NCBI GenBank assembly: GCA_963575745.1
Contig: CAUYUJ010000077.1
Location: forward strand, 1-64,000
Direction of reading: 5' to 3'
Origin: Prorocentrum cordatum
Lineage: Eukaryota
DNA: 64,000 nucleotides
Shown here: positions 9,437 to 59,333 of the stretch, piece after piece
Position numbering within the stretch: position 1 is the stretch's first letter
Layout: the number at the start of each line of letters is the position of its first letter
Position numbers and translations under genes: made by a program
The notes under the pieces: generated by a model
Seen by the model: the letters and a program-made list of their open reading frames with translations, nothing else
What the model was told of the DNA's origin: nothing
The model's database searches: none

Positions 9437-9641
9437 GGCCTCCCAGATGAGGTCGGAGTAGATGCGGTCGGGGGATCGAGCCGCATCGCCGATGCATCGC
9501 CAGCGATGCATCGGCGATGCGTCGGCGATGTGTCGGCGATGCATCGGCGATGTGGGCGTGGAGAAAATCGGACACCGCAGATGCATCGGCGATGCGGCGC
9601 GATCCTCCGACTGCATCTACTCCGATCCCATCTGGGAAGCC
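9437..9641. mobile_element. 205-bp hairpin/MITE-like element with ~62 bp inverted arms
   Basis: The left arm GGCCTCCCAGATGAGGTCGGAGTAGATGCGGTCGG...GATGCATC matches the reverse complement of the right arm with few mismatches. The interior is made of catcggcgatg 11-mers. No clear TSD. Confidence 0.75.
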
Positions 9642-12479: not shown

Positions 12480-13230
<751 letters not shown>

Positions 13231-13247
13231 TTCTTTTGTTTCTTCTT

Positions 13248-13715
13248 CTTCTAAGACAACCACACCAGCTACAACAACAGCAGCAGCAACTGCAATAGCA
13301 GCAGCAACAACACTATCGCTTCTCGGCCCCCCAAAGGGCTCCAAGATAACCCCGAGAATACGCTTCAAGGGTTCCACAGGACCCCCAAAAGAACCTAAGA
13401 GGTCCCCAAGAAACCCCAACAGACCTCAAGAGGCGCCCGAGAGGCCCCCATCAGGCCCGAAGAAGCCGCCCCCCTCCTCCGCGTCCGCATCTCCAGGAGG
13501 TCCATCCCCCCTCTCCCGCCCTCCCCCCCGCCGTCTTGGAGCCACCCAAGAAATCTCCAAGAGGCCCCGAGAGGTCTCCGGATCACCCGGAGGAAGCTTA
13601 AAAAGCTCCCTTGGGGCCTCATTGTGTCTCTCTTGGGCTTTATTAGGGGCTTTTCTAAGAGGGCCCGCAAATTAACACAAACTTGACACAATAATTACGC
13701 TCTCCAATAAAAAGG
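13248..13715 (+). repeat. Local duplication, copy 1 (copy 2 at 15567-16032)
   Basis: ttctaagacaaccac.ccagctacaacaac...tatcgcttctcggccccccaaagggctcc...ttgacacaataattacgctctccaataaa is near-identical in both copies. A partial third copy lies at ~17190-17500. Confidence 0.9.
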
Positions 13716-13720
13716 TGGTT

Positions 13721-14225
13721 AGGACATTCAAGCGGGATGCCTGAGTATGGCGAGAGCGCGATTACTAAGTAAATTGTGACGGCGTCGTTGGCGCAGCGTG
13801 TATCCTGAGCGTCGAAAGCGCGATTTCTGAATAAGTTGCATGGAAGTCACAGGCGAGAGCGAAATTCTTGCATAACATGTGAAGGGTTCTCTGGCGAGAG
13901 CTGGGGTCTTGATGGAATTGCGTAAAATCTTGACTCAATTGCGATGAAGTCTCAAGCGGGAGCGCCGTTCCCGAGTAAATTGTGAGGATGTCTCAGATGG
14001 GAGCGCCGTTCCCGAGTAAAGTGTGAGGAAGTCTCAAATGGGAGCGGGATCCTGAGTAAATTGGAGGAAGTCACAGGCGGGAGCACCTTGTGAGGAAGTC
14101 TCAGGAGCGGGGGGTCCTGAGTAAATTTGGAACAAGTCTCAGGCGGAAACCGTTGTTGTTGTTATCCCGGGGGCCAGGGGCCCAATTTGAACACGAAGAC
14201 TTTCGGGCACACTTTGATTGAGGAT
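13721..14225 (+). repeat. Duplicate of 11894-12410 (internal part of the family C element)
   Basis: ggacattcaagcgggatgcctgagtatggcgagagcgcg ... gaacacgaagactttcgggcaca is colinear and highly similar. Confidence 0.9.
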
Positions 14226-14386
14226 AAAATTATCCCGGCAAAGCAACCTAACAGCGATATGTAGAAGCATATCTGAAAGCATTCCCCTTAAGATTCAGAT
14301 GAAAATCCAGTTGTAGAATTCTGCTCTTCTCGCAGTCGTAGTCGCATTCGCGATGACAGTCGCAGCGGCAACGGCAGTCGCAGTCA

Positions 14387-15290: not shown

Positions 15291-15310
15291 GGCACCCGGT
15301 GAGGGGGGAA

Positions 15311-15572
<262 letters not shown>

Positions 15573-22960: not shown

Positions 22961-23849
22961 GTGTCTGCCCGACGCGCGAGCGGAAGCATCAAACGAGCAC
23001 CACCTCCCAGGAACCGGCGCCTGAAAGCCCTCCAGTTCTGGTACTTCCCCGGTGCTCGATATTATTTCTAGTGATCATTGCTAAAGTGCAGTGGAAATCT
23101 ATGGTGAAGTCGGGTTGGAAGGACGCAGGGGCGTTGGATGCCGAAATGGACACTGTTTGGGCGGTGGACTGCCGATGCCCTGAAGGACTGGCCGAGGAAA
23201 ACCGCGGAGGACGGGCCGCAGGGGCAAGGATGCAAGGGTACCCTGAGGACATCCGTGCGTCCTTACTATGATAGGGGAACGAAACATGGCATAACCATAG
23301 AAACTCGGAGGTCCGCGCGGATTGCTCGGATCGGCGCTGGACCCCCCTCCCTGGCGCGCGCCAGGGGCGGCGCCACGGGCGCCGCCAGGGGGGTCCAGCG
23401 CGGGTCCAGCGCGGTCCAGTGCGGTCCACCTCCGAGTTTTTGCGTTCATGTCACTGTTCGTTCCCCACATCTGAAAGACCTGGCTGCAGGTCAGACTCTC
23501 AGAACCCCATGGTGAAGGGGCCCTGGGACACACAAATAAATACACACAAATAAAAGGATTTCCCATATTTTCCCATATTTTCTGGGTTTCTGTATTCCCC
23601 CCCACTTCCCATATTTTCCCATATTTTCCTGGGGGTCGTCGATTAATTGTGTCTGTGTGTTTTTTCCCCTCCTGACATGGGCGCATCGGAGCGGCCGCGC
23701 GCGGCGCGGCCCCGCCCTGCCCCTGCGGGCGGCTCGCGCGGGGCGGCGCGTCGCGCTCCTGCCGCAGCCGCGCCCTCCGGGGCGCGAGCCGCAGGGGGTC
23801 CTGGCCCGGCCCCCATGGGCAGAGGAGAAGACGAGGCCAGGACGAGAAT

Positions 23850-29829: not shown

Positions 29830-30612
29830 CATTTTACCCGAACGCGTGGTGCTCTCCCCAGTGCCAGGGTTTTCATACGACACCAGGCAATACCCCCACT
29901 TCGTGGGGGGGCATTACAAGCTCTACCAAATATCCAAACGACTCTTCGCGACCACCCAAACCCAGCTTCCCGCCCTATGACGTTGGGACACTTCACTTCG
30001 TGGCGTGCGGACGACCGTGGCTACTACACTGGCGTGGGGTACACACCCACAGAACCCAATGGTTTTTGGAGATTTCGGCGTGCGCGCGCGAAGAAAAAAC
30101 GAATGTGTCCCGCATGGTATTATTTGACAGGGATGATGGCCCTGGCAGGTGCGCAACCGTTGTCGCAGAAGTTCGAAAAAGTTGCTCGCAAAAGCCCGTT
30201 TGACAGAAATGTTTAAAAAGTGTTGGGTTTCCTACGAATCCGCAAGAGCGCGCGGGATGAGATTTTGACATTTTTTTGTTGAAAAACCATTGGTTTTTTG
30301 ATGTTTTTATGTTAAAATCGCTCCGAACACTAAGCTTTTGGAAGGATTTCGTCTTGCGCGCGCGAATGTCCACTTTACCTTATTTTTTGCAAGGGATTCT
30401 TGAAATTTGATTATATTAGAACAAGAAATGTCATTTTATAGTGTTTTTTGCAAGGGAAAACGGATTACAACAAAACAACCGGATCTTGATCACCTCGAAT
30501 TACCTGAGGCTTCCTCACGAAAATGATGAAAACGTGGCTGCGGCCTAGGCGCGGCGGGGGGGGCGCGCACCAGGGGGCCCAACAATAATTATTCTTTAGA
30601 ATTAATAATGTT
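29829..30612 (+). mobile_element. Non-autonomous element, family D copy 1, between (AAC)n tracts
   Basis: Starts TCATTTTACCCGAACG and ends AACAATAATTATTCTTTAGAATTAATAATGTT. Its 3' ~560 bp is nearly identical to 32211-32775. Confidence 0.75.
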
Positions 30613-30627
30613 CAACAACAACAACAA

Positions 30628-31704: not shown

Positions 31705-32775
31705 TCACTTTACCCGAACGCTCAGTGTTCTCACCAGTGCCAGGGTTTTCATGCGACGCCAGCCAATACCCCCACTTTGTGGGGGGGCAGTGCAAGCTCT
31801 ACCAAATATCCACACGACTCTTCGCCACCACCCACACCCAGCTTCCCGCCCTATGACGTTCGGACACTTCACTTCGTGGCCTGCGGACGACCGTGGCTAC
31901 TACACTGGCGTGGAGGGCGCAACCTATGGCGCAACCAATAGGGGGACGTTTTATTCTCGGCGGCCGAGGGCGCAACCTATGGCGCAACCGCAAGGGATTG
32001 TGGCCCCTGGCAGGCGCGCGAACCCCGTTGCAAGAGCGTGCGAAAGTAGCTCGCGCGAGCTCATGTAACATAAACGTTGGGAAAACCATTGGTTTTTTTA
32101 GGATTCGGACAGCGCGCGCGGGTGGAAATTTTGAAAAGTCGTGCAGGTGTTTTTCGAGGACCTACGGTGCGATTCGTGTGATTTTATGATGCGCGGTGCT
32201 AAAATTCTTAAGAAGCCCAATGGTTTTTGGAGATTTCGGCGTGCGCGCGCGAAGAAAAAAACGAATGTGTCCCGCATGGTATTATTTGACAGGGATGATG
32301 GCCCTGGCAGGTGCGCAACCGTTGTCGCAGAAGTTCGAAAAAGTTGCTCGCAAAAGCCCGTTTGACAGAAATGTTTAAAAAGTGTTGGGTTTCCTACGAA
32401 TCCGCAAGAGCGCGCGGGATGAGATTTTGACATTTTTTTGTTGAAAAACCATTGGTTTTTTGATGTTTTTATGTTAAAATCGCTCCGAACACTAAGCTTT
32501 TGGAAGGATTTCGTCTTGCGCGCGCGAATGTCCACTTTACCTTATTTTTTGCAAGGGATTCTTGAAATTTGATTATATTAGAACAAGAAATGTCATTTTA
32601 TAGTGTTTTTTGCAAGGGAAAGCGGGGGGGAACAAAACAACCGGATCTTGATCACATCGAATTACCTGAGGCTTCCTCACGAAAATGATGAAAATGTAGC
32701 TGCGGCCTAGGCGGCGCAGGGGGGCCGTGCACCAGGGGTCCCAACAATAATTATTCTTTAGAATTAATAATGTTC
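31705..32775 (+). mobile_element. Non-autonomous element, family D copy 2 (has an extra ~300 bp at 31913-32210)
   Basis: Colinear with 29829-30612; terminal motif at 32743-32767; AAC runs on both sides. Confidence 0.75.
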
Positions 32776-34208
32776 AACAACAACAACAGCAGCGACCCCG
32801 GAAAGCGTTCCGAGAAGCGGTCCGACCCCGCGAAACCTCGGTGGCCTGCCGCGCCCGTCCATCGCCCAGTCGGCTCGGGGCCTCCCCGACTGGCCGACGT
32901 CCCGGGCGCCACTCCCTTTTGCCAGCCTCGGGACGCCGAGTAAGCCTCACCGGTTGGCGGCGTGCGAGAGGGGGCAGGGGGAGGGGGGAAGGCTTCTTAA
33001 AAGCACCCTGCTTCTAAGAAGCCTTCCCCCCTCCCCCTGCCCCCCTCTGCGCGTGGCCGAGCCTGAGCGACAATCAAAAAGGAGTATTACACGAGATGGC
33101 GCAGCAACCTTACGCGGTGGCTTACGCGGGCCGCCATCGTGGAACGCCACGCTGGAAGCGAGGGCACTTACGCGCGACCTTACGCGGGCAACGTACGTGC
33201 CCATGTCGGCGCAGACGACCCCGTGTCTTTGCGTCGCGCGCCTGGCCAAATCAAGCAGATGGTTTTGAGGATGCCGCGATCGAGTCCCAAGGCTGCGACA
33301 TGCTCAACACAAGAGGCCCAACGAGCCGAAGGACAGACACCGTCCAGCGTGGAACCAGGGAGGCCATGGACGAAGCGAGCTCGAACGCGCCCTGCGGCGC
33401 GAGCCTGCACGGCGTCACGCGTCACTCACCCTGCTCCACTGGCCCACCTGCAGCTCTTCCTACCCCTTTTTCACAACAGGATATTGTCAGGAGTCGAACA
33501 GGGGACCGACTACAGAATCGGTTTGCCCCCACACTTGTTTCTCCGTCGAATCTACCAGCAATGCGTGGGATGTTCCGTAGATCTACCGCGCATTGCACGC
33601 ATTTTCGTCGTAGATCTGACGGCAAAATTTCTGGGGTAAATCAGTTTTGTAGTCAACCCCTCATTCGAAGGAAGGGCCGAGTCCAGACGGAATTAGCCCA
33701 GACGGAGGCCGAGCATTCCGTGCGGACCTACTCCGCACGGGCTCTCGCATCCTAGCAGGAGGAGGCGAAGTCCAGACGGAGTAAGCCCAGACGGAGACCG
33801 AACACTCCGCACGGACTCAACTCCGAACCGACTTAGCTGGGGAAACCAAACAGTACCCATACCGCTACTCCCCCGGCCTCTCCCAGGGTGCGCGCTCTGA
33901 CAAAGCGAGGCGAGTCCAGCGGTGGCGACGAGGGCCTTCCAGGACGCCCTATTTCAAGGGAAAACGGGCGAAGGGCAGTGGCATGGGTACACTTATGCTC
34001 CGCACCGAGCTGCCTTCGACATTCCGGCGGGCGGGCGGCAATGAGGGGTGACCCAAATGGGGGGTGCAGAAAAGGACACGCAAGGGGTCCTTGAGGGCCC
34101 CTCTTGGGCACCAATTGGCTCCAAAAGGGGCCCTAAAAGGGGCCCTTGAGGGCTCATTTCTTCACCCCCGATTGGGTCACCCCCCAGTACCGCCCGCCCG
34201 AGACACTC

Positions 34209-35057: not shown

Positions 35058-36678
35058 CGTGCTGGGGGTTGCGCTGCTGGTCGTAGGGGTTTGTGCTGGG
35101 GGGTTGTGCTGCAAAGTTGTGCTGGGGGTTTATGCCGAGGGGTACTGCCGGGCGGTTGTGCTGGCGGGTTCTGCTGGGGGGTTGTGCTGTGTGTGTGCTG
35201 GAGGGTTGCGCTGGGGGGTTCTGCTGCGGGTTGTGCTGGGGAGGTTGTGCTGGGGGTGGTGCTGGGGGGTTGTGCCCGGGGTTTGTGCTGAGGGCGTATG
35301 CTGGGGAGTTGTGTTGGAGGGTTGTACTGGGGGGTTGTACTAGGGGGGATGACTGGGAGGTTGTGCTGGGGAGGGGGGGGTTGTGCTGGGGGGGTGTGAG
35401 GTGGGGTTGTGCTGGGGGGTTGTGCTGAGAGGTTATGCTGGGGGAATGTGCTGGGGGGTTGTGCAGGGGAGTTGTGCTGGGTGGCTGTTGCTGGGGGATT
35501 GTGCTGGGGGGTTGTGATGGGGGGTTGTGCTGGTGGGTTGGCGGTGGGGTTGTTCTGGTGGATTGTGCGGTGGGGTTGTGCTGGGGGGGGGGGCGGGGGG
35601 TTGTGCTGGGGGTTGTGCTGGTGGCTTGCTGGGGGTCGTGTGGGGTTCTGCTGGGGGACTGTGATGGGGGAGTTGTGCTGGGTGTTGTGCCGGGGGTTAT
35701 ACTGGGGGGTTGTGCTGGGTGGTTGTGCTGCGGTGGTGGTGCTGGGGGGTTGTGCTGGGGGGTTGTGCTGGGGGTTGTGCTGGGGGTTCTGCGCGGTTTG
35801 GCGGGGGGGGTGCTGCGAGGGTGTGCTGGGGGGGGATTATGGGGGGCTGTGCTGGGGATACTTCTGGGGAATTATGCTGGAGGGTTGTGCTGGAGGCTTG
35901 TGCTGGGACGTTGTGCTGGAAGGTTTTTGCTGAGGCGTTGTGCTGGTTGGGGGTTGTGCTGGAGGGGGATTGTTCTGGGGATTGTGCTGGGGAGTTGTGC
36001 TTGGTGGTTGTGCGGAGGGGTTGTGCTGGGCCTTGTGCTGGGGGGTGTGCTGGGGGGTTGTGCTGGTGGGGTTGTGCTGGGGTTGTGCTGGGGAGGTTGC
36101 TGGGGGGTTGGTGCTAGGTGTGCGGTGGGGGGGGGGTTCGTGCTTGGGGGGGCTGCTAGGTTCTCGTGCTGGAGGGTCGTGCAGGGGTGTTATGCCGGCG
36201 CATTGTGCTAAGAGTTGCGCTGAGGGGTTGTGCTGGGGGGTTGTGCTGGGGGGTCTTGCTGGGCGGTTGCGATGGGGCGGTGCTGGAGAGTTGTGCTGGG
36301 GGTTATGCTGGGGGTGGCTGGAGGGATGTGCTGGGGGGTTGTGCTGGAGGGTTGTGCTGGGGAATCGTGGTGGGGGGTTGTGCTGGGGGGGTTGCTGGGG
36401 GATTGTGCTGGGGGTTGTGCCATGGGGTTGTGCTGGGGGTTGCGCGGTGGGGTTTGTGCTGCGGGGTCATGCAGGGGGTTGTGCAGAGGGGTTGTGCCGG
36501 GGGCACTGTGATGGGAGTATTTCTTGGGGGGGGGGCTGGGAGGTCGTGCTGGGGGGTTGCGCTGGGGGTTGTGCTGGGGGTGTTATGCTGGGGGTCGTGC
36601 GGGGAGGGTTGTGCTGGGGAGTTGTGCTGATGAACCGTGGTGGGGGGTTGTGCTGGGGGGGGTTGCTGGGGGGTTGTG
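35058..36678 (+). repeat. G-rich satellite array, 12-14 bp unit TTGTGCTGGGGG(G)
   Basis: About 1.6 kb of diverged units, G-rich on the + strand. Confidence 0.95.
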
Positions 36679-44700: not shown

Positions 44701-44800
44701 NNNNNNNNNNNNNNNNNNNNNNNNNNNNNNNNNNNNNNNNNNNNNNNNNNNNNNNNNNNNNNNNNNNNNNNNNNNNNNNNNNNNNNNNNNNNNNNNNNNN
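44701..44800. other. Assembly gap (100 N)
   Basis: Run of n; true length unknown. Confidence 1.
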
Positions 44801-46292
44801 CAGCACAACCGCAGCACAACCTCCAGCCGAACCTCCAGCACGACTCCAGCACAACCTCCAGCGCATCCTCCATCACAACTCCATCACAACCTGCAGCACA
44901 ACACCAGCACAAAACCTCCAGCATCGACCTCCAGCACAACCTCCAGCACAAACCCGCAGCACGCCTCCAGCAACAACTCCCCAGCACAACCCCTCAGCAC
45001 AACCTCCATCACAATCCCCCAGCACAACCCCCCAGCACAACCCCCCAGCACAACCCTTCAGCACAACCCCTCAGCACAGCCCCCAGCACAACCCACCCAG
45101 CACAACCCCTCAGCACAACTCCCCAGCACAACCCCCCAGCACAGCCCCCCCAGCACAACCACCCAGCAGAACCCCCCAGCACAACCCCTCAGCAGAACCC
45201 ACCAGCACAACCCCCCAGCACAACCCCCCCAGCACAACCCCTTGTGCTGGGGGGTTGTGCTCTGGGGTTGTGCTGGGAGGTTGTGTTGAGGTGTTGTGCT
45301 GGGGGTTTGTGCTGAGGGGTTGTGCTGTGGGGTTGTGCTGAGGGATTGTGCTGAGGGGTTCTGCTGAGAGGTTGTGCTCGCGGGGTTTTTTTTTTTTTTT
45401 TTAATTGTTGAGGTGTTGTCTGGGGGTTTGTGCTGAGGGTTGTGCTGAGTGGATTGTGCTGCCGGGTGGTGTTTGGGGGGTTGTGTGGGGGTTGTGCTGA
45501 GGGATTGTGCTGAGGGTTGTGGCTGAGAGGTTTGTGCTGGAGGGGTGGTTCTGGGGATTGTGCCTGAGGGTTGTGCTGAGGGGGTTTTGCTGGGGAATTG
45601 CGCTGGGGGGTTGTGCTGAGGTTGTGCTGGAGGGTTGTGCTGAGGGGTTGTGCTGAGGGGTTGTGCTGGGGGGTTGTGATGAGGGCTTGTGCGGGGGGGT
45701 CGTGCTGAGGGGTTGTGCTGTGGGGTTGTGCTCAGGGGTCGCATTGAGGGTTTTGCTGAGGGGTTGTGCTGGAGTGTTGTGCTGAGGGGTTGTGCTGAGG
45801 GGCTGTGCGCTGGGGGGGGGGGGGGGGGGGGGCTGAGGGGTTTTGCTGTCAGGGGTTTGTGATGAGGGGTTTTGCTGGGGGTTTGTGCTAGGGGTTGTGC
45901 TGGAGGAGTTTTGCTGATGAGGGGTTGTGATGGGGGGTTGTGCTGAGGGGTTGTGCTGAGGGTTTGTGCCGGAGGGTCGTGCTGAGGGGTTGTGCTGGAG
46001 GTTGTGCCGAGAGATGGTGCAGAGGGGTTCTCTTGGGGGTTGAGCTGAGGGTTGTGCCGAGGTGTTGTGCTGCGGGGTGGTGCCGTGGGGGTAGTGCTGA
46101 GGGGTTGTGCTGAGGGCTTGTGCTGGAGGGTTGTGCTGGAGTGGTCGTGCTCGAGGATCGTGCCGAGGGGTTTTGCTGGAGGTTGTGCTCAGAGATAATG
46201 ATGAGGATTGTGCTGCAACGTTGTTGCGCGGGTTGAGCTAGGGGGTCGTGCTGAGGGGTTGTGCTGGAGGGTCGTGCTGAGGGGTCGTGCTG
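44801..46292. repeat. Same satellite: C-rich arm (44801-45241) abutting a G-rich arm (45242-46292)
   Basis: CCCCCCAGCACAA-cccc-TTGTGCTGGGGGG inversion centre at ~45240; the G arm is dominated by TTGTGCTGAGGGG. Confidence 0.95.
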
Positions 46293-46729
46293 AAGGGCGC
46301 GCGGGGCGCCAGCAGCCTAGATAATGCAGCGCGGGAGGCCCACCCGCTGGATTCACATGCGAAGGCCTGGCGTGCCCAGCCGCGCAAGGTACGAGGGCCG
46401 AGCGCTGGATGGAATTGCGGCCACGTGCGCGTGCAGCTCTCGCCGAGGCCAGCCCAATACACACGGCGACGGCGACGGCGACGGCGCCGAGAGCCTGAGC
46501 GTGCTAACTTGCGGCTGCGCGTGACCCTGCCTGGTTTCTGGCGCCGTCGCACGAAGCGGAGCTCCAGCGCACCCCCCCCTAAGCGACTGGGTGCCCACAC
46601 GGCGCCCGCGTCGAAAGCGCAACGCGGTCGCCCCGCCGAACCAGTTTCTTTGCCCGGCCCCAGCGTACCGGACCGCGACAGGCACCCTCCGCCGAGGCCC
46701 TTGGAAACGTGTGGCTCAGGATGGAAACG

Positions 46730-48165
46730 TCAGAACTCGAACTCTGTCGCTTCCAGGTCGGGGCACGACTCGATGGCCGCCCGCACCGCGTCGGGCGCCA
46801 TGATGAGCCCCCTGCAGCTGCGGCGCTGGACGGCGCGCGTGATCAAGAACCTCGCGGCACCAGCGATGTTGCCCCTCTTTCGGGCCTGGCCCAGGAGCTT
46901 AGCCACGTCGCTCTCCGTCGCGATCGGCGGCGAGGCGGCGGGCGCCGCCGCCTCCTCCTCTGGGGGAACGAAAAGGTACCGATACCGCAACCCCCTGGAC
47001 CTCCCCCGGGGTGCGTTCTGACCAGAAATTCGAAGCGAATCCAGCCGTGGCAACGAGGAATCTCCAGAAGGCCCAAGAAGGCCAAAACGGCGGCGGGGTA
47101 GCGGCATCGGTACCTTTCCCCCCCCCTGATCCTGCTCACTCTCCGCTGGAAGCGTCGCGATCAGCGTGCTCGTGCAGCTGCTCGCGCCGTCGTCGGCCCC
47201 AGCGGCCGCCGCGTCGGCCCCAGCGGCCGCCGCGTCGGCGGCCTCGGCGCCGGGGCCGCCGCCAGCCCCGCCCCCGCCCAGGTCCTCGTCGCCGACGTCG
47301 CTGGACTTCGCCGAGGAACTGGAACTCGAGGAAGACGAGGAGGACGACGCGACCTCCGCGCCCACGGCCGCGGCCTCCTCGGCAGCGCCACCGTCGGACT
47401 CCTCGGCGTCGGCGTCGTCCTCGTCCTGCCGCCAACCCAGGGCGTGGTGCTCCTCGAGGCCTGCCGCATCGGGGTCCCAGGGCTCGACCTTAAACTTCGG
47501 GTAGGAGTCGACCTTGACCTCCTCAGCCCAACGCTGCGTCAAGCAAGAGCGCAGACCACTGTGGAACGCGCACCGCGCGTGGGCGCCCTGCATCTCCGAA
47601 AGGTAGCGCCTGTGGGCGTCGGGGGCCCACTGCGCGATGAAGACGCGCCGATCAGAGGCGGTGGACTTCTCGAACAACTTCCTGTTAGATCGCGATAGAA
47701 GCCAAGTATCCTGCTCGTCCTGCATGTAAGCCTTGATCTTTCGCCCTGGACCTCGGTCCACCAGCTGCCAGATGTGCGTGGTGCTCTTCGGCGGGCCCAG
47801 GTGGCAGATCGTCTTGAGCTCACCCATGGCCCGACGATAGGACGTCGTGCGAGACGCGTCCAGAGAGTCCGTGACGAGCAAGGCCGCCTCGTTCGAGCCC
47901 TCACGGCGCGGCGCCCAGACAGCGTCGATCCACTTCCGCATCGTCGCCCTGTCCATCCACGCCTTCGGCTGGAACAACACCGCCACGTCGTCGGGGTACC
48001 GCGACCGCTCCACCGCCGAGATCTGGCCCTTGCCCCTGGAAATGATCGACAATTTTGGTTGCGGCTGGGTCAGGTCCGCGGAGAAGCACAACTGCAGCGT
48101 GCACTCCCGCTTCTCCCGCCCTGCGCCCGCCCCCGCGACCTTGCGCGACCCCGTCGCCACGTCTT
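46730..48165 (-). CDS. pogo/Tigger-like transposase, DDE_1-type catalytic region + acidic linker + C-terminal extension
   Basis: Canonical pogo-family motifs GREKRECTLQLCFSAD, VLFQPKAWMD, LLVTDSL (D2) and PPKSTTHIWQLVD (D3); 36 residues lie between D2 and D3. Confidence 0.85.
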
Positions 48166-48261
48166 CTGGGGAACACCATGCCTGCGGGCGCGCGTTCCAA
48201 CGAGCGCCCCCCCGTTCCCCCGACGCCCATTCGCGGCCGCCACGGCCCAGGAATTTCCGGG

Positions 48262-48403
48262 TGTGCTGAGGGGTTGTGCTGAGGGGTCGTGCTGAGGGAT
48301 CGTGCTGAGAGGTTGTGCTGGGGGGTTATGCTGAGGGGTTGTGCTGAGGGGTTGTGCTGAGGGGTTGTGCTGCGGGGTTGTGCTGGGGGGGGGGGGGGGA
48401 GGT

Positions 48404-48445
<42 letters not shown>

Positions 48446-49122
48446 TGCTGGGGGGTTGTGGCTGAGGGGTTGGATGGGGGGTGTGGGCTGGGGGTGTGTG
48501 CTGATGGGTTGTGCTGAGGGTTTGTGCTGAGGGGGGTGTGCTGGGGGGTTGTGCTGAGGGTTTGTGCTCTGGGGGTTTGTGGGCTGATCGGTTGTGCCTG
48601 AGGGGTTGTGCTGGGGGGTTTTTGTGCTGGGGGGGTTGTGCTGAGGGTGTTGTGCTGAGGTTTTGGTGCTATGGGTTTTGCTGAGGGTTGTGCTGAGGGG
48701 GTTGGGCTGAGGCTTTGTGCGGAGGGGTTGTTGCTGAGGGGGGTTGCGCTGAGGTTTGTGCTGGGGGGGGGTGCTGATGGGTTGTGCTGAGGGGTTGTGC
48801 TGAGGGATTGTGCTGAGGGGTTGTGCGAGGTTGTGGGGGTTGTGCTGAGAATTGTGCTGGGGGATTGTGCAGAGGGGTTTGTGCGAAGCGCGGTTTGTGC
48901 TGGGGTTGTGCTGAGGGTTGTGCTGAGGGGTTTGCTGAGGGGTTTGTGCTGAGGGGGTTGTGCTGAGGGATTGTGCTGTGGGGTTACGCTGAGGGGTTGT
49001 GCTGAGGGGTTGTGCTGAGGGCTTGTGCTGGGGGGGTGCGCTGGGGGGTTGTGCTGATGGGGTTGTGCTGAGGGGTTGCGCTGAGGGGTTGTGCCGTGGG
49101 GGTGTGCGGAGGGGTCGTGCTG
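48262..49122 (+). repeat. TTGTGCTGAGGGG satellite array inside the pogo-like gene, with a poly-G tract
   Basis: Seen directly; poly-G at ~48385-48445. Confidence 0.95.
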
Positions 49123-49357
49123 AAGGGCGCGCGGGGCGCCAGCAGCCTAGATAATACAGCGCGCGAGGCCCACCCGCTGGATACACATGCGAGGGCCTGG
49201 CGTGCCCAGCCGCGCAAGGTACGAGGGCCGAGCGCTGGAAGGAATTGCGGCCGCGTGCGCGTGCAGGTCTCGCCGAAGCCAGTCCAGTTCTCTCGCCGGG
49301 GGTGGTCCTGACCGCTGCGCCCCCCTGCCCCCTGGGAAACGGTGACCCCTGGCGCTC

Positions 49358-50840
49358 TTTGGGAGGTCGCGAAGGCCTTGCCCTTCCCAGTGAAGTCGTA
49401 TTCGCAGGGCACCTGGTCTGCGTTGTATCTCTGACCCCAGCCGAAGAAGCCCATGTCCCCGTCGAACTCGTTGGCGGCGCCCCACTCGGCGGGCAGAGGA
49501 CTGCGCGCGCGATGCCGGAGGCCGCGGATCCACTCTTGCATCACCGCGGCCTCCTGCTCTGGCACCAGTCGGCGGCGATTCTTGATCTTGCGCCACCGGA
49601 ATCCAGCCCCTTTCATGAACGTTGTGCAGAAGCGCTTCGTGGGCCCCCACACCTTCCTCGTCTTCCGCACGATCGGGAAGCCCACGTAACCGTCGCGGCC
49701 CTCGTCGATGCGGCCTCGGATCACCGCGTAGATAGCCCGCGCCTCATGGTACGCCACGTTCGCCGTCAGCTTCCGATTCCCCCTTCGAATCTTGATGAGC
49801 CGATTCCTCAGACACTTCGTGAAGATGCGCATCGGCTTCGTCCGCCACTCCTGCGACCTCTCCGCTCTCGCCGTCCTGCCAGCGGCGTGCTCCTGCGCCG
49901 CGCGCCTCTCCAGCGCGGCCAGCTGCGCCGGCTTCTTCCACTTGAAGAGCGTCGTGTAGGGAACGGGGGTCCCAGACGCCCTGTCGCGATCGTCCTTGTA
50001 CGGCATCCCCGCGGCCAGGGCGCCGTTGTGCAAATCCAAGAATGTCAAGCACTGCTGAGCAGAGTACCGCTTCCGCGTCTCCGCGCCGCTGGTCAATTTC
50101 TCCCGCAGCCCGCTCTTGAGCACCTTCTTCTTGACGCGGAGCGCCTCGTCGGGATTCTCCTGGCCGCCCGCGTGCTCCGCCCCCTCGAGCCCGCCCTCTG
50201 GCTCCCGATCCTCCTCGGCCGCGTCCCAGGGCGCGGCCTCCAGCTCCTCCTCGGGCGCCTCCGCGCCCTCCAGCAGCAGCGCGTCTATCACGTCCCCGGG
50301 CCCCTCCAAGCGGGCACCCGCCCCTGGGGCGCCCTCGCCTCCGAGAAGGCCTGGGCGTTTCGGGCACTTGCCGTGATGCGAAGAGATCCCCTGGCTCGTC
50401 TTGGCGCGAAATTCGCAACCGGGATGCCCGCAGAAGAACGGGAACAAGGCATCCGTCGTCTTCGGGCCAGGGGCGAGCTCTCGACCGCCCGCGAACCACC
50501 TGGCACCGTGCGCGAAGAGCGTGCTCTGCTTCTTGCGCATCTTCTGCGGGGTCTCGGGGCCGTCGTCCTGAACGTCCTCGACGGCCTCCTCGGTGTCGGT
50601 TTGCCTATCTAGTGTCCTGCTCCCTCGAGGTGTGTGGTCCCCAGTTTGCACGACGGCGACCTCGGCGGGCCTCTTGACCTGGACGCCGAGACAGGCGCCA
50701 ACCAGCGTCGGGGCGCTGCTTCCCTCTCCTGGGCATGCCGCGCGCGGGCCGCCACAGGTGAGCCAGTGCTGGCAACTCAAAGACTGGGGAAACCAGTCGT
50801 GGCACTTCGGGCACTTATGGAAACCAGGGAAGTCTGACAT
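49358..50840 (-). CDS. pogo-like transposase N-terminal half: two C2HC-type zinc-finger motifs, bipartite HTH region and first catalytic Asp
   Basis: Zinc-finger motifs CPKC-x11-HWLTC and CGHPGC-x12-HHGKC. RKRYSAQQ..VPYTTLFKWKK looks like the first HTH, and RKLTANVAYHEARAIY..PTKRFCTTFMKGAGF like a Tc5/CENP-B HTH. YNADQVP carries D1. Confidence 0.8.
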
Positions 50841-50850
50841 CCCCGCTGTG

Positions 50851-50871
50851 CTTGAGCCAGGATGACTACGA
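50851..50871 (-). other. Relict dinoflagellate spliced leader (DinoSL)
   Basis: The minus strand reads TCGTAGTCATCCTGGCTCAAG against DinoSL CCGTAGCCATTTTGGCTCAAG: 17/21 identical, ungapped, ending 10 nt before the ATG at 50840. Confidence 0.8.
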
Positions 50872-50879
50872 TGACCACC

Positions 50880-52340
50880 GGGGGTTGTGCTGGGGGTTGT
50901 GCTGAGGGGTGGTGCTCAGGTGTGCTGAGGGGTTCTGCTGAGGGGTTGTGCTGGGGGGGTGTGCGGAGGGGTTCTGCTGAAGGGTTGTGCTGGGGGTTTG
51001 TGCTGGGGGGTTTGTTGCTGGGGGTTTGTGCTGAGGGGTTGTGCTGGGGAGTTGTGCTGAGGGGTGTGCTGAGGGGTTGTGCGAGGGGTTTTGCTGGGGT
51101 TGTGCTGGGGGGTTTTTTGCTGGGGGGTTGTGCTGGGAGGGGTGCTGGGGGATTGTGTTGGGGGATTGTGCTGGGGGGGGTACTGGGGGGTTATGTTGGG
51201 GGTTGTGCTGGGGAGTTGTGCTGGGGGGTTGTGCTGGGGTACTGTGCAGGGGGGGTTACGCCAAGAGGTTGTGCTGGGAGGTTTTTCGGGGGGGGTGCTG
51301 GGGTGTTGTGCTGGGGGTTGTGCTGCGGGGTTGTGCTGGGAGGTCGCGATAGAGGGGTCGTGCTGAGGGGTTGTGCTGGAAGGTTGTGCTGGGGCATGTG
51401 CTGGGGGTTGTGCTGGGGTGGTCGTGCTGGGGGGTTGTGCTGGGGGTTGTGCTGGGGGGTTGTGCTTGGGGGTTGTGCTGGGGGGTTGTGCAAGGGGGCG
51501 TTCTGACGGGGAGGGGGCTGGGGGTTGTGCTAGGGGTTGTGCTGGGGTTGTGCTGGGCGGTTGTACTGGGAGGTTGTGCCGGGGAGGGTTGTGCTGGGGG
51601 GTTGTGCTGGGGGGTTCCGCTGGGGGGGTTGTGCTGGAGGTTTGTGCTGGGGAGTTGTGCTGGGGGTTTGTGCTCGGGTGTTATCCTGGGGTTGTGCTAG
51701 GGGGTTGCGCTGGGGGCTGTGCCATAGTCGTCCAAAACTCGGATAGCGGGACAGTCCACAGCGCGTGAAACGCCTGTGGGAGACGCTTGTAAGGATGCTG
51801 GAAAGGGCATTTGAGAAGCTTGCAAGCTCGAGAAATGGAGCTTCGCAAAAGCCCAGCAAGACCTTCGAAGGAGCTTCGGAAAGGCTTCCCAGAAACGTTG
51901 TGAACACGGGAAACCGACTTCGGGACACGCTGCAAACCCCAAGCACAACGCCCCAGCACAACCCCCCCAGCACAACTCCCCAGCACAACCCCTCAACACA
52001 ACCCATCAGCACAACCCCTCAGCACGCACAACTGGTCAGCACAACCAGCCAACACAACCGGACAGCACAACCGGCCAGCACGAACCCCCAGCACAACCCC
52101 CCAAGCATAACCCCCAGCACAACTCCCCTGAGTACCGCTCCATCACAAATCCCCAGCACAACCCCCCAGCACAAAACCCCCAGCACACACCACCAGCACA
52201 ACATTCAGCACAACCCCCCAGCACAACTCCCCAGCACAACCCCCAGTGCGCACCCCCCGCACGAACCCCCAGTACAAACCCTCAGCACAACTGCCCTGCA
52301 CAACCCCCTTGCACAACCACCAGCACGACCACCAGCACAA
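50880..52340. repeat. Same satellite: G-rich arm (50880-51722), ~215 bp unique spacer, C-rich arm (51938-52340)
   Basis: Inverted arrays seen directly. Confidence 0.95.
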
Positions 52341-52982
52341 CGTCATCGCAGTGACAATTTCTTAAATCAGTTTTTCGAACATCATTCACGCGATGACCGC
52401 AGGACATGGCACAAAACAAAGAGTTTTAGACATATGATTATGTAGGCCCGCGAGGCTGAAGCCGGGCATGCTGTCATAGTTTTTTGAAACCAGTGCCGCT
52501 GCAGCGCTGTCCACATGACCGTGCTTCCGTTTCGCTTGATCGTGGGCCGCCTTTGTACGATGCACACTGAAACTTTGAAACCGCTAGGTTTGGATTCCAA
52601 CTGCACCTCTGGCAGCAGTCTCTCGTCCGACAGAACGACGACCTCGCCCAAGCGCGGGCCACCAGAGTACGAAAGGCCCCCGCTCGTTGATTGCACAGTC
52701 AACGATGAGTCAAATGCTGCTGCGGCCACCACAACGACGACATACGACGACGGAAGACGGACGACAGACGGCGACAGCCGACGGACGACATATCACCGAC
52801 GACAGACGCAGATGCCGACGAAGGACGCAGATGGACGACGGTCCGACAGATGCAGACAGGCGACGGACGACCGACGACCGCCGACAGGCGCCGACACCGC
52901 CGGCCAACGGACAACGGACGACAGACGACGACGCGACGACGACGACGACGTCCTCGGGGGCGCGGGTGGGCTCCTCCAGCAC

Positions 52983-53039
52983 CTGGAGGGCGCACGCCGT
53001 CACGCTGATGATGCCCCGCGACGAGCCGGGGATGTCCTC
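52983..53039 (-). CDS. Putative micro-exon (EDIPGSSRGIISVTACALQ)
   Basis: Acceptor gcgag|GAG, donor CAG|GT; 57 bp, phase 0/0, GC3-biased. Confidence 0.5.
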
Positions 53040-53870
53040 CTCGCGCCGCTCGGATCGCCCCGCCGCTTTCCCGAGACGCCCGGGGGCTCGACGCAATCAA
53101 GAGGACCCCTCCGCCCGATGACCCAAACATCCCGCGGAGTGTGCTCTCGTCACCTCGGCTTCTGGCCGGCGTCATTCGGGCCCGGGGCCCACCAAGCCTG
53201 CAGCCAGGACGAAACACTACCCCCAGGAAAGGAGGTCGAGACCTGGGGCCGCAGATAAAAAACACCTTCAGGGTTATGTTGCTCCCATCGTACTTAAGGA
53301 CCACATCCCAGAAATAATGTCGAGCACCCCGAAAAGTATCGAAAAACGGTGTCGAGCGAGTGTCGCCTTCCAAGGCACGACGCGTGAAAGCCCCAAAGTT
53401 CCGGTCCTCTCTTGGTGCTCGAACTTCTTCGTGGTGCGCAAGGCCTAAAAAGCAGGTTGGGGCAACGTAGCCTTAGGGGCCGAGGCCGACTTCGAGAGAC
53501 CCTCCGCGAGAGCGGCTCGGGAAAGGAGAGACACACCGTCGGTGGAAGGTGGTCGATCGGGGGCGCGCTGGCCCGACCTCTCTGGCCTCATGCCTCCTCG
53601 CTCCTCCTGCTCTTGCCCTGGCCCGGAGGAATGACTACCTGCCAGACCACCCCAACCCAACTCGAAGACCCGAATTTTGGGTTGGGGGGTATGGGCTCCA
53701 TATATGTGTTGTCGATGTTCCCGGACCCCCCCCACTGGAAATGAAAGCCAAATTGAGGCCTTCGGGTTGGGTTGGGGTAGTTTGGTGCGTGGTGAAGGAA
53801 GCACGGGCCAACGAGCAACCATTGGTCGGAAGAGGTAAGTGGAAGCACGAAGTAGGAGGGCGTTGAAAAT

Positions 53871-57581: not shown

Positions 57582-59333
57582 CTGCGGGGGCGGGCGCGGG
57601 AGGAGGGCGGCCCCCCTGGGCGCGGGCACTACGTACCTCCTGCTGGCCGTCCAGCGCCCAGCAATGACTTCAGGGAGTTCGTGGTCCTCAAGGGGAGAGG
57701 GGCGTGCATGTGGGTGTGTTGCTTTATCCTTCCTCTCTCGTCTTCGCTTCCCTTGCCGTGCTTCCTCCTCCCTCCCCGTTTATCCTCCCTCCTCTTGCAT
57801 GCCGCCACCTCGTTGTCCTCTGCTTTGTGAGGGCGGGTCCCCCGCTCTGTGAGTGGATCTTCACGCGCGACCTGGTCTTCGACCGCTAAGAATTTGACCG
57901 TGACAGCGCCACGAAGGCTGAACACAACCATCGAGAGATCCAGCACGACTAGGTCCGCGACAGATGGCACTTCAACCGCTTACAATCTGAAAAATTGCGG
58001 GATGGTACCAAGGAGAACGTCAACACGACTGGTCGAACATTACTCGGGGGTCGATGTCAATCATCAGACTTGCAGCCAGCGCGACCCTGCCTGAGACCAC
58101 CGGGAGCTCAACAAAAAACCGAACTTGACCACTTCGACCACAGTCACCGGCCGTTCCAACACGACGCGGTCGCCATCTACTGGGAGGTCACTCCTTAGCG
58201 GAGGCCAGTCCACAAGAACCTGTCCACAAGAAGCCCAACCTTCAGACCCCAAGACGTCCATGGATTCTTGGTGTGGGAACGTCACGATGTCCATAAAGAA
58301 ACCATCGAAACCCAAGAAACCCAGGGCACCCTGGAGGCAAGCAGGGTGTTTCTTGGCATGGGCTGCTGCTGCTGCCCTCTCGGGCCTCTGTGTGGATTGT
58401 CCCTCCCCTGCAGTCGGGGATGGCCAGAAGAGCACCCCTCAAGAACACGAGACCCTCCGTCGGCAAACACAATCTGAACATCCAAGGTTACCCTCCCCAG
58501 GATTAACATGAGCATCCAACAAGCACGAAGAACACTACGGTACCCTCCCGAACCGACCTCGATCTGATGCCTCGGTCCGACTGTATCTCCCCTCATTCCT
58601 TGATTCGGCGGCGAGCCAGGGGGAAGTGAGAAGGAGAAGGATTTCGCAGAAGACTCCGAAGGCCCCTGGAGTTTTGACAAGTTTTCGAAGCCTGCCCAGA
58701 AAACACCGAAAACTTCTCAGAAGGCGCGAGGGCTTCTGAGAAGCCCCGCCGCCTTCTGAGAAGGCCTTCTCCCTCTCACTTCCCCCCCTCGCTCGCCGCC
58801 GAACATCAGCACCAAGGAGAAGAACGACTTCGTGGTCGAGAGCCAAGAAGCCCGCTGGTTTCGCCGCCTAGCCCGACGCCCGAATGGCGTTCGACCTCAG
58901 CGTGGCGATCGCCCAGGTGATACAGCGGAGACCAGTCCACAAGAAACCTTCCATCAGAAAACCCAACCCTGAGGCCCCAAGACGTCCATGGATTCTTGGT
59001 GTGGGAACGTCGCGCTCTCCACAGCAAAGCCATCGACACCCAAGAAACCATCCTGGAGGCAAGCAGGGTGTTTCTTGGCATGGGCCTCAACTGTACATGG
59101 CAGTGGAAGTTACAGCACGTCGGTATGCCAATGCTGCTGCGAGCAGCAGCGCGAAAGCCACCGGCACGACGGGAACCAGCAGCACCACGGCGACGGGGAG
59201 CCCGAACAGAATCGTGATCAGTACGGTTGGGACCAGCAGTACTCCGGTGAGCCGTACGCGCGCGCGTGCAGCACGTGTGTCCCGAGATCTCGCCTTCAGA
59301 ATGACCCCAAGCAGCCCGAAGGAGGCCAAAATA

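What the first reader, a model, noticed from the sequence alone, without database searches (positions are those of the whole stretch)
44801..52340. pogo/CENP-B-like transposase gene with no visible TIRs, housed inside inverted arrays of a G-rich 13-bp satellite
Seen: the transposase unit fills the space between TTGTGCTGRGGGG arrays. Satellite begins about 40 bp upstream of its ATG and about 25 bp after a TAG at 46317-19, and I see no TA-CAGT-type pogo termini. The arrays flip orientation at 45241 and across 51723-51937, so G-arm 45242-46292 and C-arm 51938-52340 bracket the gene as long, internally repetitive inverted arms. Established: Foldback/Galileo-type elements have long TIRs built from tandem repeats, and CENP-B is a pogo-derived protein that binds a satellite motif. 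Inference: this is either a foldback-like pogo element whose ends are satellite arrays (CAGCACAACCCC as the transposase binding site) or a satellite-associated, possibly domesticated, CENP-B-like gene.
Basis: partly seen in the sequence, partly recalled or inferred. Interest (0 to 1): 0.78.

Follow-up and report, generated by a model that had tools for sequence, protein, structure and literature searches.

The report
Transposase retrogene embedded in satellite arrays
A transposase gene in a dinoflagellate-type genome seems to have been copied back from its own messenger RNA, which would explain why it has no transposon ends, and blocks of a 13-base repeat lie in and around it rather than forming its ends.

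Summary
The arrays, both orientation flips and the gene are real. There are five arrays here, plus a sixth at 35086-36678 with no transposase beside it.

The gene runs on the minus strand from ATG 50840 to TGA 46732-46730. It encodes a full-length pogo-type DDE_1 transposase with an intact D/D/D triad. It is collinear with a 902-aa relative once a GC-AG intron (49376-48182) is removed.

A decayed dinoflagellate spliced leader (18 of 22 bases) ends 10 nt upstream of the ATG. This marks the locus as an mRNA-derived retrocopy, which would explain the missing TIRs and TA duplication.

Satellite B, with a 159-bp non-repetitive "head", is a 1,034-bp insertion inside that intron. A 93%-identical relative reads straight across the site without it. 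The same head plus array recurs 273 bp after the stop codon. A 154-nt GT..AG hairpin element also sits in the C-terminal coding region.

The foldback-transposon reading is not supported. A domesticated, possibly satellite-binding gene stays open: the ORF is intact although the tag has decayed. Splicing and expression are untested. Interest is moderate.

The parts
51938..52340 (.). Satellite array R, C-rich on the + strand, GTGCTGG variant (14 of 20 typed units)
51723..51937 (.). 215-bp non-repetitive spacer between the inverted arrays C and R; unique in the window
50880..51722 (.). Satellite array C, G-rich on the + strand, GTGCTGG variant (31 of 38). It ends 7 nt from the relict leader.
   Evidence: An X1 contig runs from 50651 across 50879 into satellite (record 8 and table 5c).
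50851..50872 (-). Relict dinoflagellate spliced leader: 18 of 22 positions match, and all 4 mismatches are C/T transitions. It ends 10 nt upstream of the ATG.
   Evidence: the only match in the window at up to 3 mismatches in 20 nt, expected 0.02. Sequence read. DinoSL sequence from PMC6050394 and PMC12014239.
49377..50840 (-). Exon 1 (488 codons): zinc-finger-like N-terminus, helical DNA-binding region, and the first catalytic Asp (RYNADQV)
48182..49376 (-). Inferred intron 1 (1195 nt, GC..AG, phase 0). It would be about 156 nt without the insertion.
   Evidence: The join DFTGKGK|AWCSPED is gap-free against four relatives. Coordinates. GC-AG usage in dinoflagellates from PMC11453091. No RNA evidence.
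48262..49295 (-). 1,034-bp insertion inside intron 1: a 159-bp head (49128-49286), 9 nt of unassigned sequence (49287-49295), and satellite array B (48262-49127; GTGCTGA variant, 27 of 38). CCCGG stands on both sides (49300-49296 and 48261-48257).
   Evidence: P0001 joins the two flanks directly. An X1 contig covers 49067-49398 and bridges the head/intron junction with 2 differences (record 3). Also.
46730..48181 (-). Exon 2 with stop codon: DDE_1 core (second and third catalytic Asp), acidic/Ser-rich linker, and a conserved C-terminal domain ending EATEFEF*
46960..47113 (-). 154-nt introner-like element with GT..AG ends and about 23-nt terminal inverted repeats, inside the coding region. With a flanking AG it makes 156 nt, in frame, and is absent from all relatives.
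   Evidence: Fold z -3.84, 0 of 200 shuffles as good. Second copy at 33837-33990, 72%. Up to 95 (X1) and 110 (X2) contigs carry it (table 3). Gap in alignment A1.
46457..46729 (-). 3' flank or UTR between the stop codon and head A. No poly(A) remnant was recognised.
46298..46456 (-). Head A, 94.3% identical to head B over 159 nt
45242..46297 (.). Satellite array A, G-rich on the + strand, GTGCTGA variant (22 of 39). Collinear with array B only for the 40-70 nt next to the head.
44801..45241 (.). Satellite array L, C-rich on the + strand, GTGCTGG variant (18 of 25). It abuts array A head to head and runs into the N gap 44701-44800.
35086..36678 (.). Separate array of the same 13-bp satellite (GTGCTGG variant, 52 of 60), with no head and no transposase beside it

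Best explanation
The locus is an mRNA-derived copy (retrogene) of a pogo-superfamily DDE transposase gene in a dinoflagellate-type genome. It entered as reverse-transcribed, spliced-leader-capped mRNA, so it never had terminal inverted repeats or a TA duplication here.

It lies in a region rich in a 13-bp G-rich satellite. The satellite is not part of the element. One repeat unit, a 159-bp non-repetitive head followed by an array of the GTGCTGA variant, sits inside an intron of the gene. A second copy of the same unit sits 273 bp after the stop codon. Arrays of another variant, with two orientation switches, form the surroundings. A small GT..AG hairpin element of a high-copy family has also entered the C-terminal coding region.

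Shown: the gene, its family and triad, the leader-like tag, the insertion relative to a close relative, the repeated head, and the two satellite variants.

Inferred: the retroposition itself, splicing of both inserts so that a 919-aa protein is still made, and selection having kept the frame open after the gene became immobile.
For: Gene:
- DDE_1 at E 8.2e-10.
- The first exon finds a 902-aa relative (P0002; E 2.1e-84, 41% identity, query 2-494 against 3-502).
- Exons 1 and 2 together cover P0002 from M1 to its last residues, with a gap-free join.
- D483, D605 and D642 of P0002 are invariant in 4 of 4 relatives and present in the window protein.

Retrocopy:
- The leader match at 50851-50870 (-) is the only one in 64 kb at up to 3 mismatches in 20 nt. 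The expectation is 0.02, and 2 of 100 shuffles gave any match.
- It lies on the gene's strand and ends 10 nt before the ATG.
- Such relicts are the accepted tag of dinoflagellate retrogenes, including intron-bearing ones (PMC6050394 and PMC12014239, passages read).
- No TIRs were found at the gene flanks or the outer flanks.

Insertion:
- P0001 (93% identical, 220 of 237) has residues 3-8 equal to the last six codons of the left intron flank, and residues 9-29 aligned from the first codon of the right flank.
- No GT/GC/GA..AG pair can be placed at that junction (read), so this is an empty site rather than a spliced one.
- The head is repeated at 94.3%.
- One X1 contig carries a further head copy that diverges after the position matching 49287 (table 7).
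- Arrays A and B share the GTGCTGA variant (22 of 39 and 27 of 38). Arrays 35k, L, C and R carry GTGCTGG (52 of 60, 18 of 25, 31 of 38, 14 of 20).

Selection hint:
- Of 18 listed differences to marine-metagenome contigs (X2), 12 are synonymous.
- If the 971 codons had drifted like the tag (4 of 22; 95% CI 5-40%), they would stay stop-free in 1% of 2000 simulations at 5% divergence and in none at 10%.
Against: - No poly(A) remnant and no target duplication of the retrocopy was found.
- The retrocopy reading rests on one 22-nt tag.
- The gene appears to hold an intron, which is unusual for retrocopies elsewhere, though reported in dinoflagellates.
- Splicing is inferred only from collinearity with relatives. 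No RNA run was available.
- If the intron is not removed, the 1,034-bp insertion breaks the frame.
- The exact edges of the insertion are uncertain by about 10 nt. P0001 is known only as protein and has a 3-residue indel nearby. Nine nt (49287-49295) belong neither to the head nor to P0001.
- No class, termini or target duplication could be assigned to the head-plus-array unit.
- Head A and its junction are not covered by X1 contigs.
- X1 may be the sample the assembly came from.
- Three arrays in the gene's orientation lie directly beside gene parts, a closeness this explanation treats as coincidence of a satellite-rich region.
Confidence: 0.6

Rival explanations
1. Foldback-like pogo element. 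The satellite arrays are the long, internally repetitive terminal inverted repeats, and the transposase binds the 13-mer to mobilise the whole unit.
For: Arrays of opposite orientation do lie on both sides of the gene: 45242-46297 G against 51938-52340 C. No ordinary TIRs exist. Earlier AI notes of this scan report other transposons lying in satellites of this genome (unchecked).
Against: - A relict spliced leader sits directly before the ATG.
- The arms are no more alike than any two arrays.
- The proposed arms carry different satellite variants (A: GTGCTGA; R: GTGCTGG).
- Two more arrays lie inside and one outside the arms.
- A 93%-identical relative lacks the intronic array.
- The satellite occurs alone at 35086-36678.
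- The outer flanks show no inverted match or duplication, and the left end is lost in an N gap.
Confidence: 0.06
2. Domesticated CENP-B-like gene. The immobile transposase copy is kept by the host as a DNA-binding protein that recognises the 13-bp satellite around it.
For: - The copy is TIR-less and the run data give no sign of many close copies. The gene is covered by single short X1 contigs with 0-4 differences (table 8).
- The 971-codon frame and the triad are intact although the tag has decayed.
- 12 of 18 differences to X2 contigs are synonymous.
- The top structural match of the N-terminal helical region is the CENP-B DNA-binding domain (Z 6.0, 119 of 131 residues aligned).
- The family profile has a C2H2 zinc finger (E 6.1e-10 to PRDM9 fingers).
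Against: - No result connects the protein with the satellite.
- Z 6.0 at rmsd 9.4 A is within the range the tool calls a common arrangement, and Foldseek found nothing at E <= 0.001.
- Pfam finds no CENP-B_N or Tc5 HTH in the protein.
- The catalytic triad is retained, so the protein may simply still be a transposase.
- Purifying selection between copies is also expected for active transposon lineages.
Confidence: 0.12
3. Dead gene. The 156-nt segment is coding sequence rather than an intron, and the 1,034-bp satellite unit has simply broken the gene. The open frames are then a by-product of high G+C.
For: - The 156-nt segment is in frame and stop-free, both here and in P0001.
- No RNA evidence for splicing exists.
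- High-G+C DNA gives many long open frames on both strands.
- The leader's T-run, proposed as a promoter motif in PMC6050394, is mutated to TCCT.
Against: - The segment is missing in 4 of 4 full-length relatives, exactly between conserved residues, with GC..AG|G at its ends.
- Both exons are open over 488 and 483 codons in the frame that matches the relatives. Simulations make this unlikely under neutral decay.
- Synonymous differences exceed non-synonymous ones.
Confidence: 0.15
4. The orientation flips of the satellite are assembly errors in a repeat-rich, scaffolded region.
For: A 100-N gap abuts array L. Satellite arrays cannot be checked with the short contigs available. Head A and the 45241/45242 junction are not bridged by any listed contig.
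Against: - The arms around 45241/45242 are not mirror images (37-47% ungapped), unlike the near-perfect palindromes that chimeric reads produce.
- The gene-proximal junctions at 49286-49296 and 50879/50880 are each carried by an X1 contig.
- The right-hand flip has a unique 215-bp spacer.
Confidence: 0.1

Closest known systems
pogo / Tigger elements (pogo superfamily of IS630-Tc1-mariner DNA transposons)
   Same: DDE_1 catalytic domain with three conserved Asp residues, the last two 37 residues apart. N-terminal helical DNA-binding region. More distant relatives (P0029, P0030) carry HTH_Tnp_Tc5.
   Different: This copy has no TIRs and no TA duplication. It has an extra zinc-finger-like N-terminus and a conserved C-terminal domain. 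It has spliceosomal-type inserts and a spliced-leader relict in front.
Dinoflagellate DinoSL-tagged retrogenes (PMC6050394, PMC12014239; passages read)
   Same: A decayed 22-nt leader lies directly upstream of the coding sequence on the same strand. An intron is present, as reported for some dinoflagellate retrogenes.
   Different: The retroposed gene is a transposase. No poly(A) remnant, target duplication or parental copy was identified. The listing (10 of 24 papers shown; titles and abstract starts only) showed no paper on leader-tagged transposase genes.
CENP-B and other pogo-derived domesticated genes
   Same: Pogo-type protein without transposon ends, lying beside a satellite. Weak top structural match to the CENP-B DNA-binding domain.
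   Different: Catalytic residues are intact. No CENP-B_N hit in Pfam. No evidence of satellite binding, and no orthology or synteny data.
Foldback / Galileo elements (recalled from the literature, not read here)
   Same: Tandem-repeat arrays in inverted orientation lie on either side of a transposase gene.
   Different: The arms are not specifically paired, belong to different variants, are interrupted by further arrays, and have no definable ends.
Introner elements of dinoflagellates (PMC10666404 and PMC11453091, passages read; Roy et al. 2023 seen only in reference lists)
   Same: The 154-nt element at 46960-47113 has GT..AG ends, about 23-nt inverted repeats and many copies. It sits in a coding region in a way that keeps the frame.
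   Different: Splicing is not shown. The head-plus-satellite unit in intron 1 has no inverted repeats and is not of this kind.
Satellite-carrying non-autonomous elements such as Helitron/Helentron-borne arrays
   Same: A non-repetitive end with a boundary shared by three copies, followed by a tandem array of variable length, found at separate places.
   Different: No Helitron-type termini, hairpin-plus-CTRR end or insertion-site rule could be shown. The scan's index found no look-alike of the head.

Membership tests
pogo superfamily DNA transposon | DDE_1 (PF03184) catalytic domain | tested here: met
   E 8.2e-10 and 7.1e-10, 39 bits against a cut-off of 22
pogo superfamily DNA transposon | Complete acidic triad (D, D, D) | tested here: met
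   RYNADQV, LLVTDSLD and QLVDRG align with D483, D605 and D642 of P0002, which are invariant in 4 of 4 relatives
pogo superfamily DNA transposon | CENP-B/Tc5-type paired helix-turn-helix DNA-binding domain | tested here: inconclusive
   Pfam finds no family in exon 1 at E <= 0.05. AF2 model has pLDDT 81.5. Foldseek finds none at E <= 0.001. VIA-align rank 1 of 48,161 is 1hlv_A, at Z 6.0 and rmsd 9.4 A.
pogo superfamily DNA transposon | Terminal inverted repeats flanking the gene | tested here: not met
   Best inverted alignments are at shuffle level: 183 of 300, 284 of 300 and 161 of 300. No long-range non-satellite inverted repeat surrounds the block.
pogo superfamily DNA transposon | TA target-site duplication | tested here: not met
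   There are no termini at which to look. No TACAGT/ACTGTA in 44801-52400.
Foldback/Galileo-like element | Two long inverted arms built of tandem repeats that are copies of each other | tested here: not met
   The arms are 73-78% alike in any register, like any two arrays. Arm A is the GTGCTGA variant and arm R the GTGCTGG variant.
Foldback/Galileo-like element | Defined outer ends with a target duplication | tested here: inconclusive
   The right end fades into degenerate repeats. The left end is lost in the N gap 44701-44800. The flanks are unrelated.
Foldback/Galileo-like element | Other copies with the same arm-gene-arm layout | not testable with these tools
   No genome is held. The one close relative seen (P0001) lacks the intronic array.
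DinoSL-tagged retrogene | Relict spliced leader upstream of the coding sequence on the same strand | tested here: met
   18 of 22 positions match. It is the only match in the window, with an expectation of 0.02, and ends 10 nt before the ATG.
DinoSL-tagged retrogene | Poly(A) remnant and/or target duplication at the 3' end | tested here: inconclusive
   By eye, only a weak A-rich stretch (AAAGAAA near 46650) and no clear direct repeat. No formal search was run.
DinoSL-tagged retrogene | Parental copy without the relict | not testable with these tools
   No genome is held.
CENP-B-like domesticated transposase | Sequence-specific binding to the neighbouring satellite | not testable with these tools
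   Needs EMSA or DAP-seq.
CENP-B-like domesticated transposase | Immobile single-locus gene kept under purifying selection | tested here: inconclusive
   No TIRs. 12 synonymous against 6 non-synonymous differences to X2 contigs; 87 further differences were not shown. Simulation of stop-free survival. No orthologue DNA.
Introner (the 154-nt element at 46960-47113) | Multi-copy element with inverted-repeat ends that supplies splice sites | tested here: met
   GT..AG ends. Hairpin z -3.84. Second copy in the window. Up to 95 and 110 contigs in two runs.
Introner (the 154-nt element at 46960-47113) | Removed from the mRNA | not testable with these tools
   No RNA holder was listed.

The most novel reading that the evidence does not exclude
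A pogo-type transposase that lost its transposon ends by retroposition has been kept intact by selection. It now acts, like CENP-B in mammals, as a binding protein for the 13-bp satellite that surrounds and invades its own gene. The 159-bp head plus array would be a new kind of mobile satellite carrier that spreads its binding sites.
Probability: 0.07. Interest if true: 0.75.

Novelty: new member of a known kind. Interest (0 to 1): 0.4.

Why it matters
It explains a transposase gene without transposon ends by a known dinoflagellate mechanism, retroposition of leader-capped mRNA, rather than by a new transposon type.

It offers a clean candidate for an early stage of transposase domestication: an immobile copy with an open frame and an intact catalytic triad.

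It also shows, at one site with an empty-site comparison, that a satellite array with a defined non-repetitive head can arrive as a unit inside an intron. That bears on how introns grow and how satellites disperse in very large, repeat-rich genomes.

Tried and rejected
- **RNA evidence:** no RNA holder was listed.
- **Read laying:**
  - X1 and X2 give no cover at 46604-46909.
  - X2 gives almost none over array B.
  - No contig joins across the insertion.
  - These blanks are not used as evidence.
  - Summed word depths are much higher over the satellite, the head and the 154-nt element than over the gene, but they are not copy numbers and were used only as hints.
- **Head as a protein query:** no candidate (only proteins of 31-100 aa were searched).
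- **Exon 2 protein searches:** one close hit and two distant long ones. No annotated model of this gene appeared.
- **Rfam and tRNA scans of 44801-53500:**
  - The only Rfam matches were four sub-threshold miRNA-model matches on the 45241 hairpin.
  - No tRNA was found.
- **Scan's own index:** the gene, the head, the 154-nt element and the satellite have no look-alikes.
- **Metagenome relatives L001-L007:**
  - In 6 of the 7 loci no inverted repeat brackets the ORF.
  - TRF on 2 of the 7 found no 13-bp satellite.
  - The contigs are only 1-5 kb, so transposon ends could lie outside them.
- **Hairpin motif GCGGTCCAACCGC seen in L002:** at chance level in the window, 3 matches against 2.77 expected.
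- **Leader 15-mer in the seven loci:** no exact match. A leader-like stretch upstream of the L002 ORF was judged chance-level by hand.
- **Intron-1 flanks against the 154-nt element:** no significant similarity, 42-376 of 500 shuffles as good.
- **Foldseek against PDB:** nothing at E <= 0.001.
- **Pfam on other ORFs in the window:**
  - The window held 121 stop-to-stop ORFs of at least 140 aa with entropy above 3.6 bits.
  - 110 of them were scanned. The 11 inside 45061-50915 were left out.
  - The only match was one sub-threshold low-complexity hit.
- **First alignment (A1):** too gappy for the locus search, so a four-sequence alignment (A2) was used instead.

Full report
**Observation**

Tandem Repeats Finder gives period-13 arrays at these places:
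- 44801-45241 (C-rich on the + strand)
- 45242-46297 (G-rich)
- 48262-49127 (G)
- 50880-51722 (G)
- 51933-52341 (C)
- a further one at 35086-36678 (G)

A 100-N assembly gap (44701-44800) abuts the leftmost array.

So the repeat landscape is real. It consists of five arrays around and inside the gene, not two arms.

**The gene**

Two long minus-strand frames carry the coding sequence.

The downstream frame has a DDE_1 domain (E 8.2e-10). An all-against-all HMMER search with the upstream frame found 27 proteins at E <= 0.001. The best is the 902-aa P0002 (E 2.1e-84, 41% identity over query residues 2-494).

Aligned together, the two window frames cover P0002 from its first Met to its last residues. 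The join DFTGKGK|AWCSPED matches DFQSSGK|SWASPED without a gap.

This places the features as follows:
- Exon 1 at 50840-49377.
- A phase-0 GC..AG|G intron at 49376-48182.
- Exon 2 at 48181-46733.
- The stop at 46732-46730.

GC-AG introns are common in dinoflagellates (PMC11453091, passage read).

The three catalytic Asp residues are invariant in four relatives and present here.

Pfam sees no DNA-binding family in exon 1. A profile of the relatives hits C2H2 fingers (PRDM9, E 6.1e-10).

An AlphaFold model of exon-1 residues 230-488 (pLDDT 81.5) has the CENP-B DNA-binding domain 1hlv_A as its best match among 48,161 chains. The match is only Z 6.0 at rmsd 9.4 A, and Foldseek found nothing at E <= 0.001. 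"pogo-type" is therefore established, and "CENP-B-like" is only a weak lead.

**Why there are no transposon ends**

The minus strand reads ...ATCGTAGTCATCCTGGCTCAAG, then 10 nt, then the ATG. The dinoflagellate spliced leader is DCCGUAGCCAUUUUGGCUCAAG (PMC6050394; PMC12014239). The window matches at 18 of 22 positions, and the four mismatches are all C/T transitions.

Its 20-nt core is the only match in the 64-kb window at up to 3 mismatches. The expectation is 0.02, and 2 of 100 shuffles gave any match.

Genomic relicts of this leader are the accepted mark of genes that were reverse-transcribed from mRNA, and intron-bearing retrogenes are reported.

An X2 contig from a marine metagenome covers 50713-50864 with 3 differences (record 16). 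The proximal part of the tag is therefore shared with a relative in another sample.

No TIR could be found:
- Gene flanks: 183 of 300 and 284 of 300 shuffles score as well.
- Outer flanks: 161 of 300 shuffles score as well.
- No long-range non-satellite inverted repeat surrounds the block.

I did not find a poly(A) remnant or a target duplication of the retrocopy. That remains the main gap in this reading.

**The satellite inside the gene is an insertion**

The only close hit to exon 2 is P0001 (264 aa, 93% identical, 220 of 237). It begins in the intron and reads GQDHPR|KFPGRGG.

The first six of these residues are the last six codons of the left intron flank (ending at 49296). The rest aligns from the first codon of the right flank (starting at 48256). 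The 1,034 bp between them (49295-48262) are therefore missing in that relative.

No GT/GC/GA..AG pair fits the junction (read), so this is an empty site rather than a spliced one. CCCGG stands on both sides.

The edges are uncertain by about 10 nt, because P0001 is known only as protein and has a small indel close by.

The inserted block has three parts:
- A 159-bp non-repetitive head (49128-49286).
- Nine unassigned nucleotides.
- Array B.

The same head, 94.3% identical, followed by array A, lies 273 bp after the stop codon. Collinear similarity continues only 40-70 nt into the arrays.

One X1 contig carries a head copy that departs into other sequence after the position matching 49287, where heads A and B also end (table 7). 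Other X1 contigs carry variant letters at six head positions (table 3). The head therefore has a shared outer boundary in three copies.

I could not assign the unit to a transposon class. An earlier AI note of this scan (e1-7694971) reports Helitron2-like satellite carriers in this genome, but the index found no look-alike of this head.

**Two satellite variants**

Arrays A and B, the two with a head, are mostly GTGCTGA units (22 of 39 and 27 of 38 typed units). Arrays 35k, L, C and R are mostly GTGCTGG (52 of 60, 18 of 25, 31 of 38 and 14 of 20).

They are 73-78% alike in any register, like any pair of arrays.

The 45241/45242 junction is not a mirror image (37-47% ungapped). That argues against a chimeric-read palindrome, but no contig bridges it.

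X1 contigs do bridge the head/intron junction (49067-49398, 2 differences). They also bridge the junction between the leader-proximal DNA and array C. X1 may, however, be the sample the assembly came from.

**A second small insert**

The segment 47113-46960 (minus strand) starts with GT and ends with AG. It folds into a hairpin through about 23-nt terminal repeats (z -3.84, 0 of 200 shuffles as good).

It has a 72% copy at 33837-33990 with the same boundaries. It occurs on up to 95 (X1) and 110 (X2) contigs (table 3).

With a flanking AG it makes 156 nt, in frame, and it is missing from all relatives. This fits the introner elements described for dinoflagellates (PMC10666404 and PMC11453091, passages read). 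Splicing is untested.

**Is the gene alive?**

Both exons are open, 971 codons in all, or 919 if the 156 nt are removed.

Of the 18 differences to X2 contigs listed by the tool, 12 are synonymous. Both of the 2 X1 differences are non-synonymous, and 87 further differences were not shown.

If the coding sequence had drifted as far as the tag (4 of 22; 95% CI 5-40%), it would remain stop-free in 1% of 2000 simulations at 5% divergence and in none at 10%. That model uses substitutions only.

This hints at selection after immobilisation, so a domesticated gene is possible. It does not show any link to the satellite. Selection among active transposon lineages, or conversion from other copies, could give the same picture.

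**Relatives elsewhere**

Seven metagenome loci encode relatives at 31-41% identity. In the six I examined no inverted repeat brackets the ORF, and the two I ran TRF on hold no such satellite. These contigs are only 1-5 kb long.

Four of them carry a small hairpin motif that earlier AI notes describe for large pogo-like transposons. It is at chance level in this window.

**Verdict**

The best-supported account is a leader-tagged retrocopy of a pogo-type transposase gene in a satellite-rich region. A head-plus-satellite unit lies in its intron, a second copy of that unit lies behind it, and an introner-like element lies in its coding region.

The foldback-transposon idea is not supported. The domesticated, satellite-binding idea is open but unsupported beyond intactness.

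Each component is a known kind of thing, and the combination is a neat case rather than a new class.

Noticed in passing
window 46960-47113 and 33837-33990: 154-nt GT..AG element with about 23-nt terminal inverted repeats. One copy lies in the transposase coding region and one 13 kb away (72% identity, same boundaries). It is present on up to 95 and 110 contigs of two sequencing runs, so it looks like an introner family.
   Followed up: partly
L002 1670-1900 and 4205-4352; also L001, L003, L004: Metagenome relatives of the transposase carry tandem units (40 and 60 nt) that each contain the small hairpin GCGGTCCAACCGC, upstream and downstream of an intronless 788-aa ORF. The same motif is mentioned in earlier AI notes on large pogo-like transposons.
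   Followed up: partly
L005 1833-2415: A 134-bp tandem repeat (3.3 copies, 91% matches) whose units hold a 24-nt palindrome, upstream of another relative of the transposase.
   Followed up: no
window 48385-48444, 45807-45833, 45386-45403: Homopolymer runs inside the satellite arrays: 60 G in array B, about 27 G in array A, and about 18 T in array A. X1 reads seem cut at 48374-48456, according to read laying.
   Followed up: no
window 10100-10797, 9437-9641, 23274-23466, 34028-34200, 58604-58803: Self-inverted (palindromic) stretches of 176-729 nt at 68-78% identity, found in the self-comparison of the window.
   Followed up: no
window 11886-12416 / 13714-14231; 12992-13720 / 15310-16040; 30051-30626 / 32211-32788: Local direct duplications at 92%, 88.5% and 97% identity, interleaved with (ACT)n and 41-bp tandem repeats. 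This points to segmental duplication in a repeat-rich, gene-poor stretch.
   Followed up: no
whole window: Apart from the transposase, none of 110 long open frames scanned has a Pfam family above its cut-off. The window is dominated by micro- and minisatellites (130 TRF rows).
   Followed up: partly
window 50858-50859: The T-run of the leader relict, proposed in PMC6050394 as a promoter-like TTT(G) motif of retrogenes, is mutated to TCCT in this copy.
   Followed up: no
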